DNA of 64,000 nucleotides from assembly GCA_951406725.2 (NCBI GenBank), contig OX597823.1, positions 32,674,001-32,738,000 of the forward strand, read 5' to 3'. The stretch comes from Octopus vulgaris. Lineage: Eukaryota. Position numbers and translations under genes: made by a program. The notes beneath the pieces were generated by a model, which did no database searches, was not told the DNA's origin, and worked only from the letters and a program-made list of their open reading frames with translations. Positions 44,231-45,761 of this stretch are shown one piece after another; within the stretch, counting starts at the first letter, position 1; every line of letters begins with the position of its first letter.

Positions 44231-45461
44231 CATACATACACACATATACTCCTACACAGTGGCGGGCTGGCCAGGTTGCCATCTTACCAGATGGCAAGTG
44301 GACCCTTGTGCCATTAAAATCCATATATGGGGGCCCATGTTATTATTTAAGGGGCCCATTCCCTCAAGTTTGAGAATTTTTTATTCACTCCTGGAAGAAT
44401 GCATAAATTATTTCAGCCTGGCTGTGTTTGTAGACAGTTGAAAAGAATACTTTTAACAAAAAAAAAATTAAATGATAGCATTGTAGTTGTGGGTGGGTCC
44501 CTTTAGTCTTCTGGCAACCAATATTTTTAGAACAATTTCTGTCCCTTAATCACACCTTAACCTCTTGTCATCCAGCATAAAGCCACCCACCCCTATACTA
44601 TTCCCTCCTCTTCAGTTGAGTTGTCATGTTTTGCAAATTGTCATTAGGAAGAGCAAGTAGTCATGGAGACCCCATGCTAAAGCAGAATTTGGAGTGCTTG
44701 ACTAGCCACTGTTGAACCATCCAATCCATGCCAGCACAAAAAACAGATATTGAATGATGATGAATGACAAATGCTGGACACCAAAACATGCCACTACTTA
44801 TTACTATCCACCCCGTGTAAAATAAGACCTTTCACTCTTGACTCGTGAGAAATATGGCAATCACTATTGTTGTCTTATTTATTTCTCTCCTGGGTGCATT
44901 GGTGTTACTCAAATCCCTTAGTGCTCAGAAATCCCAATGCAGTGAATGATTTCACAACATTATTACTTTACTCTGCGGGTTTGTAAATATTTCAAAGATT
45001 ATGCTAAAATTTTCCCACCTCTTTCCTCATATTAATTAATAATTAATATTTCTATTAATTTATATCTATAAATGGTCCCTCTGCTATGTAATTAGAAGTT
45101 TTTCTCTTTAATTATCTCTCCATTGTTGCATTTCTCTTAGATTTTTTTAGTTAATTTTTTATCATTTTATTATCGGTTTGGTCTTGAAAGCACAATTGCT
45201 ATACCCCTGGCCTTTATAGGCCCTCCAAGACCAAATAATTGATGCTAATGACAGGCCTATTGATAACTGCTGAAGAGGTAAGTGTAGGGAGGGAATTAAT
45301 GAGGTAAGAGAAGGAGGAAGAGGAGGAAAGGCAAGTGAACCAGACGTGCCTGAACAGAGGAAATTCAAGGAGCAGAAGCAACTTTAGTAGCAGTTGAGAG
45401 AGAACTTACTACTTCAAATAGATTTGAGGTTGTAAGTCTTTCCAACCTACATCATGTTCAT

Positions 45462-45696
45462 TATTTACATTTGACGGATATTTACCCTCATCTTGTTTGT
45501 TGTTAACACAACGTTTCGGTTGATATACTCACCAGCTTTCATCAGGTGTCTTGGGGAAATTTCGACCCTGGGGTTCTCGTTCCTAAGGTAGTTTTTGATG
45601 TTATTATTATTATTATTATTCAGGTCACTGCCTGGAATCAAACTCAGAATCTTGGGGTTAGCAGCCCCCACTCTTAACCATTACACAATTTGCCCG
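45462..45696 (-). mobile_element. tRNA-headed SINE-like element carrying a hammerhead ribozyme
   Basis: Minus strand: tRNA-like head with A-box TTGTGTAATGG, anticodon arm GGGG-CTGCTAA-CCCC and B-box GAGTTTGATTCC; then an (AAT)n linker; then the hammerhead at 45506-45549. Confidence 0.75.
45506..45549 (-). ncRNA. Minimal type I hammerhead ribozyme motif
   Basis: ACAC-CTGATGA-AAGCTG(gtgagtatat)CAACC-GAAA-CGTT-GTGT: stem I ACAC/GTGT, intact core, imperfect stem II, palindromic stem III AACGTT. Confidence 0.75.
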
Positions 45697-45761
45697 TATA
45701 TGTATTTCTGTAGAGTGATGAACTGTGATACCAACTTGTTGAATCAGTTTCCAGCCAAGTA

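What the first reader, a model, noticed from the sequence alone, without database searches (positions are those of the whole stretch)
45462..45696. Pol III (tRNA-Ser-like) SINE fused to a hammerhead ribozyme, with a second half-hammerhead in tandem
Seen on minus: tRNA-like head (A-box, GGGG-CTGCTAA-CCCC arm with GCT anticodon, B-box) and an (AAT)n linker. Next comes a degenerate motif ACGA-GAACC-cca-GGGTC-GAAATTTC (45550-45587) lacking CUG, then a hammerhead with intact core and palindromic stem III AACGTT, then a ~45-nt tail. Known: SINEs usually borrow a LINE 3' tail; minimal palindromic-stem-III hammerheads typify Penelope pLTRs; Schistosoma SM-alpha is the precedent for a tRNA-derived repeat with a hammerhead. 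Inference: a cephalopod SINE that couples its own Pol III promoter to a Penelope-type ribozyme and tail, and may be mobilised by PLE RT. Best candidate for an undescribed system in this window.
Basis: partly seen in the sequence, partly recalled or inferred. Interest (0 to 1): 0.78.

Follow-up and report, generated by a model that had tools for sequence, protein, structure and literature searches.

The report
Penelope retrotransposon repeat with tRNA promoter
This is one decayed copy of the terminal repeat of a Penelope-type retrotransposon that carries a tRNA-like promoter sequence and a hammerhead ribozyme motif; the repeat has spread by the tens of thousands, likely as short RNA polymerase III transcripts copied by the element's own enzyme.

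Summary
The tRNA-like head, AAT tract and minimal hammerhead are real and travel together in roughly 27,000-53,000 copies. The unit is not a free-standing SINE: it is the pseudo-LTR of an autonomous Penelope/Poseidon-type element. All 30 fetched copies of that element's endonuclease end run straight into it, and its 3' part runs on into the ORF, which begins inside it. Insertions show Penelope hallmarks: head-to-head inverted pairs, a ~33-nt tail on one arm only, 8-15-bp target duplications. About 80% of head-bearing copies start at the head, and the element's sense strand has no shared T4 run (P 0.03-0.006); both point to Pol III transcription, which is inferred, not shown. Corrections: the anticodon loop is ACT in most copies and there is no Ser-type long arm; the 'second half-hammerhead' is the ORF's first codons; the window copy has damaged A/B boxes, stem II and start codon. 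Ten literature searches found no Penelope-like element with a tRNA-derived promoter; Repbase, Dfam and SINEBase were not checked.

The parts
45451..45697 (-). Solo, decayed pseudo-LTR (pLTR) of a Penelope/Poseidon-type element; short-end form without the tail, no inverted partner, no clear target duplication
   Evidence: no ORF-body sequence of the element elsewhere in the window
45621..45695 (-). tRNA-derived head (putative Pol III promoter)
   Evidence: profile of this genome's tRNAs scores heads of other copies at E 1e-5 to 0.02 and this copy at E 0.005; not found by Rfam or ARAGORN
45678..45688 (-). A box, degraded in this copy
45634..45645 (-). B box, conserved C changed to T in this copy
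45600..45620 (-). (AAT)n tract, variable in length among copies; likely the tail of the captured tRNA-derived repeat
   Evidence: origin is inference
45578..45580 (-). Predicted ORF start codon of the element (ATG in most copies, ACG here)
45556..45580 (-).
45505..45550 (-). Minimal type I hammerhead lying inside the ORF's N-terminal codons; predicted cut between 45510 and 45509; stem II damaged in this copy
   Evidence: architecture matches min-HHR of PMC4209133
45451..45470 (-). 9-bp tandem unit at the short 3' end (predicted inner RT initiation site); the ~33-nt tail to the long end is absent here

Best explanation
The unit is the pseudo-LTR of an autonomous Penelope/Poseidon-type retrotransposon that holds a tRNA-derived segment, a minimal hammerhead and the ORF start, and most solo copies likely arose from short Pol III transcripts begun at the head and copied by that element's RT and GIY-YIG endonuclease. 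Shown: ORF end -> ~35 nt -> head -> AAT -> ATG -> hammerhead -> two 3' ends ~33 nt apart -> ORF continues; head-to-head inverted insertions with the tail on one arm; target duplications. Inferred: (a) a tRNA-derived repeat with an AAT tail was captured between the ORF stop and the next ORF start and became part of the repeat; (b) its A/B boxes drive Pol III from about -12 to +4; (c) the protein nicks DNA and starts reverse transcription at the two internal sites, as shown for the anole Poseidon element; (d) cDNA reaching the short palindrome at the 5' end folds back or jumps template to make the inverted arm; (e) uncut RNA is the usual template, because cutting would remove promoter and start codon, so the ribozyme is probably weak, dimeric or protein-assisted.
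For: 30 of 30 loci found with a 481-nt endonuclease-end query that held no head sequence continue into the unit. 29 of 30 loci found with the tail/ORF junction carry the unit's 3' part at that junction. One genomic place holds inverted arm + partial pLTR + ORF + full pLTR. The reading frame through the hammerhead aligns with the N-terminus of an intact 847-aa relative, P0059 (37%, E 5e-28), and a 569-aa open frame aligns at 55%. Divergent pairs: 16 of 33 units around the top hits and 7 of 18 random units, 0 convergent; 15 divergent, 0 convergent, 2 same-strand among 100 genome-ordered hammerhead hits. In 21 of 23 divergent pairs one arm is long and one short. 3' ends of 198 arms: 83 short, 6 between, 109 long; the same two ends appear in 4 of 4 sequencing runs. 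Target duplications of 8 bp or more in 16 of 53 units against 1.2% of mismatched pairs. 5' step: exact 16-mers 1,049 (-140), 1,129 (-20), 5,993 (head), 12,297 (hammerhead), with equal retention (0.37) for the -20 and head words. No T4 site is shared by 15% or more of copies over 2.3 kb; 0.36 runs/kb against 1.15 in shuffles and 2.73 in 7 other PLE copies of this genome; P 0.03 and 0.006 under two codon nulls.
Against: No RNA evidence for Pol III, start site, strand or cleavage; the runs are contigs only. The 5' step coincides with a short palindrome that could stop or fold back cDNA on a long template, although it folds no better than shuffles (z -0.66). T4 depletion is modest, G4 runs are also depleted, and the one long natural frame, L270, has 3 T4 runs against 3.1 expected. 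Rfam does not call the head a tRNA or the motif a hammerhead at E up to 5 in 4 loci. Only 41 of 97 copies keep both boxes and 15 of 139 a fully intact hammerhead. The GIY-YIG Pfam model did not hit this element's own endonuclease frame; the assignment rests on motifs and on relatives. No intact full-length ORF was seen among the loci examined (longest frame 569 aa).
Confidence: 0.66

Rival explanations
1. Same pLTR and same Penelope mobilisation, but the tRNA-like segment is a passenger: the element is transcribed by Pol II or read-through, and solo copies are ordinary 5'-truncated products that pile up at the palindrome just before the head.
For: The palindrome sits at the step and many junctions show fold-back copies of the head; Arkhipova 2013 reads such palindromes as self-priming. 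Drosophila Penelope has a TATA-less internal promoter like LINEs (abstract). Head-less short hammerhead repeats are also abundant here. The T4 signal is modest.
Against: A 5.3-fold drop within about 58 nt against 1.08-fold over the 114 nt upstream; several copies start at -4 to +4 in unique flank with a target duplication and no fold-back (L026, L027, L126); family-majority A and B boxes are perfect; no shared T4 run on the sense strand.
Confidence: 0.24
2. One reading: an independent SINE formed by fusing a tRNA head to a Penelope ribozyme and tail, with the autonomous partner lacking the head.
For: About 80% of head-bearing copies lack upstream element sequence; the head resembles that of another tRNA-derived repeat family here (score 58, z 5.8-6.7).
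Against: 30 of 30 endonuclease-end loci continue into the unit, nearly all through the head; no head-less form of this PLE was seen.
Confidence: 0.06
3. A non-LTR retrozyme that spreads through self-cleaved, circular RNA from tandem arrays.
For: Type I hammerhead in a ~270-nt non-coding repeat; retrozymes are proposed to derive from pLTRs. Mild excess of 5' ends near the cut site: 13 of 198 arms at positions 181-190 against 2-7 per 10 nt over 101-180.
Against: Copies are solo or head-to-head, not head-to-tail arrays; boundaries are the head and the two 3' ends, not the cut site; the excess near the cut site overlaps a small palindrome and microhomology joins.
Confidence: 0.03
4. Chance nesting of two unrelated repeats in an AAT tract.
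For: Many fragments hold only the 3' part.
Against: Fixed junctions in 30 of 30 aligned copies; linkage at the expected rate in an unselected list; 3'-only pieces are ordinary 5' truncations.
Confidence: 0.01

Closest known systems
Penelope/Poseidon-clade PLEs (anole PAc; PMC11167929, PMC8557442, PMC3846280, PMC4209133)
   Same: One RT + C-terminal GIY-YIG ORF, pLTR holding the ORF start and a minimal hammerhead, inverted 5'-truncated arm, 30-40-nt tail on one end, target duplications.
   Different: The pLTR opens with a tRNA-derived A/B-box segment and an AAT tract; solo pLTRs far outnumber ORF-bearing copies and start at the head; the ORF starts about 34 nt before the hammerhead core, not at stem II.
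Schistosoma SM-alpha / Sj-alpha (seen only through the review PMC6765202)
   Same: Short repeat with a Pol III promoter followed by a hammerhead.
   Different: Described as tandem and self-liberating, with single copies losing the promoter; no autonomous partner is named in the passages read. Here copies are solo or inverted, keep the promoter, and are part of their autonomous element.
TRIMp3: Cassandra, Helenus, Ajax (PMC10886601)
   Same: Small-RNA-derived Pol III promoter inside the terminal repeat of a retroelement, proposed to arise by SINE insertion.
   Different: Those are non-autonomous LTR elements; this is a Penelope-like element, and the protein-coding form carries the promoter too.
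tRNA-derived SINEs, including octopus OK/OR1/OR2
   Same: tRNA-like head with A/B boxes, about 270 nt, tens of thousands of dispersed copies.
   Different: The 3' part is the 5' end of a PLE ORF, not a LINE 3' tail; no CORE-like body was recognised (by eye, recalled motif), whereas OR1 and OR2 are each listed as CORE-SINEs. Their sequences could not be compared.
Non-LTR retrozymes and non-autonomous PLEs such as MRC1 (PMC7229834, bioRxiv 10.64898/2026.07.22.740005, PMC8557442)
   Same: pLTR-derived, non-coding, hammerhead-bearing or PLE-mobilised short elements.
   Different: No tRNA head or Pol III promoter in the passages read; retrozymes are tandem arrays.

Membership tests
EN+ Penelope-like element | Single ORF with RT | tested here: met
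   RVT_1 E 2.5e-10; 569-aa frame 55% identical to P0059; column-majority frame has 0 stops in 732 codons
EN+ Penelope-like element | C-terminal GIY-YIG endonuclease | tested here: inconclusive
   GIY-YIG-like and Cys/His motifs visible and aligned to relatives; Pfam PF01541 misses this element's frame and hits P0059 only at E 0.23
EN+ Penelope-like element | pLTR flanking the ORF and including the ORF start | tested here: met
EN+ Penelope-like element | Inverted 5'-truncated copy at the 5' end | tested here: met
   23 of 53 units divergent, 0 convergent; 15 to 0
EN+ Penelope-like element | 30-40-nt tail on one end only | tested here: met
   21 of 23 pairs; bimodal ends
Penelope/Poseidon clade | No Zn-finger linker between RT and EN; groups apart from linker-bearing PLEs | tested here: met
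   (quick tree, SH-aLRT 100, 23 rows, midpoint root)
Penelope/Poseidon clade | Groups with named Repbase Penelope/Poseidon references | not testable with these tools
   no named references available; the only named RT was Penaeus I7HI75 on a long branch
PLE minimal hammerhead | Core bases, extra base before stem II, G10.1-C11.1, palindromic 15.2-16.2, 4-5-bp stem I | tested here: met
   family majority; 61 of 139 copies keep the core, 15 of 139 all stems
PLE minimal hammerhead | Intact stem II in the window copy | tested here: not met
PLE minimal hammerhead | Self-cleavage | not testable with these tools
   contig data only
tRNA-derived SINE | tRNA-related head with A and B boxes | tested here: met
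   not detected by Rfam
tRNA-derived SINE | Transcribed by Pol III | not testable with these tools
   indirect only: 5' step and T4 depletion
tRNA-derived SINE | 3' end from a LINE 3' tail or simple repeat | tested here: not met
   3' part is the PLE ORF's 5' end
tRNA-derived SINE | Separate from its autonomous partner | tested here: not met
   the unit is the partner's own pLTR
tRNA-Ser-derived head | GCT anticodon and long variable arm | tested here: not met
   source tRNA unresolved
Octopus OK/OR1/OR2 SINEs | Sequence identity to the published consensus | not testable with these tools
   paper not held
Non-LTR retrozyme | Head-to-tail tandem units each with a hammerhead | tested here: not met
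Non-LTR retrozyme | Circular RNA | not testable with these tools

The most novel reading that the evidence does not exclude
A protein-coding retrotransposon whose whole 2.6-kb RNA is made by RNA polymerase III from a tRNA-derived promoter in its own terminal repeat (hence a coding strand free of T4 terminators), with the same promoter spawning a SINE-like swarm of solo repeats: a SINE and its mobilising element in one unit.
Probability: 0.3. Interest if true: 0.88.

Novelty: new variant of a known kind. Interest (0 to 1): 0.72.

Why it matters
SINE partners described in the papers read are LINEs; here a Penelope-like element mobilises a tRNA-headed repeat that is part of itself, extending the TRIMp3 idea (Pol III promoter in a terminal repeat) to a third retroelement class and to an autonomous element. 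It gives a ~270-nt natural template with a defined start, ribozyme and two RT start sites, and tens of thousands of insertion records. These can test open questions on PLE transposition: how inverted arms form, what the hammerhead is for, which strand is the template. If the full RNA is Pol III-made, it also asks how an uncapped RNA is translated. Practically, such copies are likely split between 'SINE' and 'Penelope' in automated annotation.

Tried and rejected
Rfam and ARAGORN on the window: nothing. Whole-unit folding equals shuffles (z 0.06). A GIY-YIG family search found abundant Zn-linker PLEs, none sharing the unit: not the partner. The ATG inside CUGAUGA was tested as ORF start: it runs into a stop, found no homologue, and is the wrong frame. 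A 2-3-fold depth step at the predicted cut site in presumed RNA runs also appears in two presumed DNA runs (a different reference copy with a small deletion there): no evidence of cleavage. No run is on record as RNA: no RNA holder listed. Searches used a frame (L285:2450-3475) that belongs to another PLE family; their hits say nothing about this element and served only as a loose T4 control (6.9 runs/kb, T-richer). One search used mis-oriented coordinates and searched the ORF middle. One search's pattern was mis-spaced (0 hits, uninformative). The 'fully intact = 0' count was a regex error, corrected. No relative in viral contigs. The careful tree did not finish; only the quick tree was seen. 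Two look-ups of earlier findings returned nothing.

Full report
Observation. The minus strand at 45695-45451 reads head, AAT tract, linker, hammerhead core and 3' part as described. The stretch is one copy of a dispersed family: 40 of 40 scored candidates (of 4,449) match nearly full length. In 100 evenly spaced 10-kb stretches there were 19 clusters covering 3,997 bases, which scales to about 53,000 loci. Exact 16-mer counts corrected for retention give about 27,000 hammerhead-bearing and 16,000 head-bearing copies; the retention figures come from partly selected loci, so these are likely low.

Column counts over 116-164 aligned copies (duplicates of one place and 8 of 9 copies from one contig dropped) give ACT in the anticodon-like loop and ATG where the window has ACG. 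The head is tRNA-related (z 6-8 against Arg and Cys tRNAs; E down to 1e-5 with a profile of 10 tRNA types) and about equally like the head of another repeat family here, but Rfam does not call it. Its source tRNA is unresolved. The window copy fails both box patterns and stem II.

The unit belongs to a larger element. Several copies shared sequence upstream of the head, which translates as a Penelope-type endonuclease end. A search with 481 nt of that upstream sequence, without the head, gave 30 loci, all followed at once by the unit (two of the 30 are the query locus and its duplicate). Walking 5' reached RT motifs and then the unit again, whose 3' part runs into the ORF. One genomic place (C1:7949894-7955219, minus) holds inverted arm, partial pLTR, broken ORF and full pLTR, with a unit length near 2.6 kb; L323 and L324 are similar. 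The frame starts at the ATG 40 nt after the head, passes through the hammerhead, and matches the N-terminus of the intact relative P0059 across the ribozyme-coding stretch. The element lacks the Zn linker and groups apart from this genome's linker-bearing PLEs. Copies among the best hits differ by about 5% from the majority at non-CpG sites; no intact ORF was seen.

Insertion signature. Head-to-head pairs, a tail on one arm, bimodal 3' ends and 8-15-bp duplications match the PLE structures described in PMC8557442 and PMC3846280 (passages). In PMC11167929 (parts 1-2 of 4) the tail lies between two internal RT start sites downstream of a hammerhead, and cleavage is protein-assisted and dispensable for insertion. 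I carry that mechanism over by inference.

Hammerhead. The family majority has every feature listed for minimal PLE hammerheads in PMC4209133 (parts 1-2 of 4). The commonest non-CpG variants fall at free positions (N7 18%, loop II 16%), but a stem II change reaches 10%, and coding constraint overlaps. The predicted cut lies 70 nt after the ATG, so cutting would separate promoter and start codon from the rest. A mild excess of 5' ends near the cut site is ambiguous.

Pol III case. For: perfect majority boxes; a 5.3-fold rise in copy number across the head's 5' edge; 24 of 31 head starts in the top set and 6 of 11 in the random set within -12 to +10; no shared T4 run. Against: the palindrome at the same edge, modest statistics, parallel G4 depletion, no signal in L270 alone, and no RNA evidence.

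Literature. Ten searches listed no paper whose title or abstract describes a PLE with a tRNA-derived promoter or a hammerhead SINE in octopus. Passages read: PMC10886601, PMC4758252, PMC7229834, PMC13282606 with a term search of its one supplement (101, 102, 107; no 'hammerhead'), PMC8967140, PMC6685494, PMC6765202, PMC4824008, bioRxiv 10.64898/2026.07.22.740005 (part 1 of 5 and passages; supplements not seen). Abstract only: PMC2377424. Not held: Ohshima and Okada 1994, Albertin 2015. SM-alpha was seen only through a review. Repeat libraries deposited with genome papers, Repbase, Dfam and SINEBase were not seen and may already hold the consensus. The A/B-box patterns, hammerhead numbering, the T4 terminator rule and the CORE motif are recalled knowledge.

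Verdict. pLTR of a Penelope/Poseidon-type element mobilised by its own protein: about 0.95. Pol III short transcripts as the main source of solo copies: about 0.66. Whole element Pol III-transcribed: about 0.3. New variant of a known kind; interest 0.72.

Noticed in passing
window:45750-46800: Mariner-like transposase remnant (recognised by eye from translation, broken by stops) directly upstream of the unit on the minus strand.
   Followed up: no
window:30580-30640 (-): Weak hammerhead-like string with a palindromic stem III but poor stems I and II; no family around it in fetched loci.
   Followed up: partly
L123:43-303, L126:8466-9671, L129:8160-8602, L049:1-292: Young head-less short repeat with a U3-A8 variant minimal hammerhead, in tandem and inverted arrangements inside (TA)n tracts.
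   Followed up: partly
L143:4950-5190, L173:2525-2760, L177:9460-9700: Second abundant head-less ~230-nt hammerhead repeat flanked by (TA)n, with the same GAAA-CG-TT end; many copies in the 1-Mb sample.
   Followed up: partly
L061:1430-6672: Young Zn-linker (Neptune-type) PLE with many intact 781-aa frames, an extra upstream 330-380-aa frame, internal tandem repeats and a 456-bp pLTR.
   Followed up: partly
L273-L278, L282, L287, L288 (contig C31): Nine near-identical truncated copies of this element at matching positions in a 12-Mb contig, suggesting a large repeated unit.
   Followed up: no
L294, L297, L299, L301: Internally deleted derivatives that jump from about 230 nt into the ORF back to the pLTR at shared points: possible non-autonomous subfamilies.
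   Followed up: no
L027:2540-2900: Another tRNA-headed repeat family (about 17-25 hits per Mb) with a CORE-like body (recalled motif); its head is about as similar to this element's head as the best tRNA is.
   Followed up: partly
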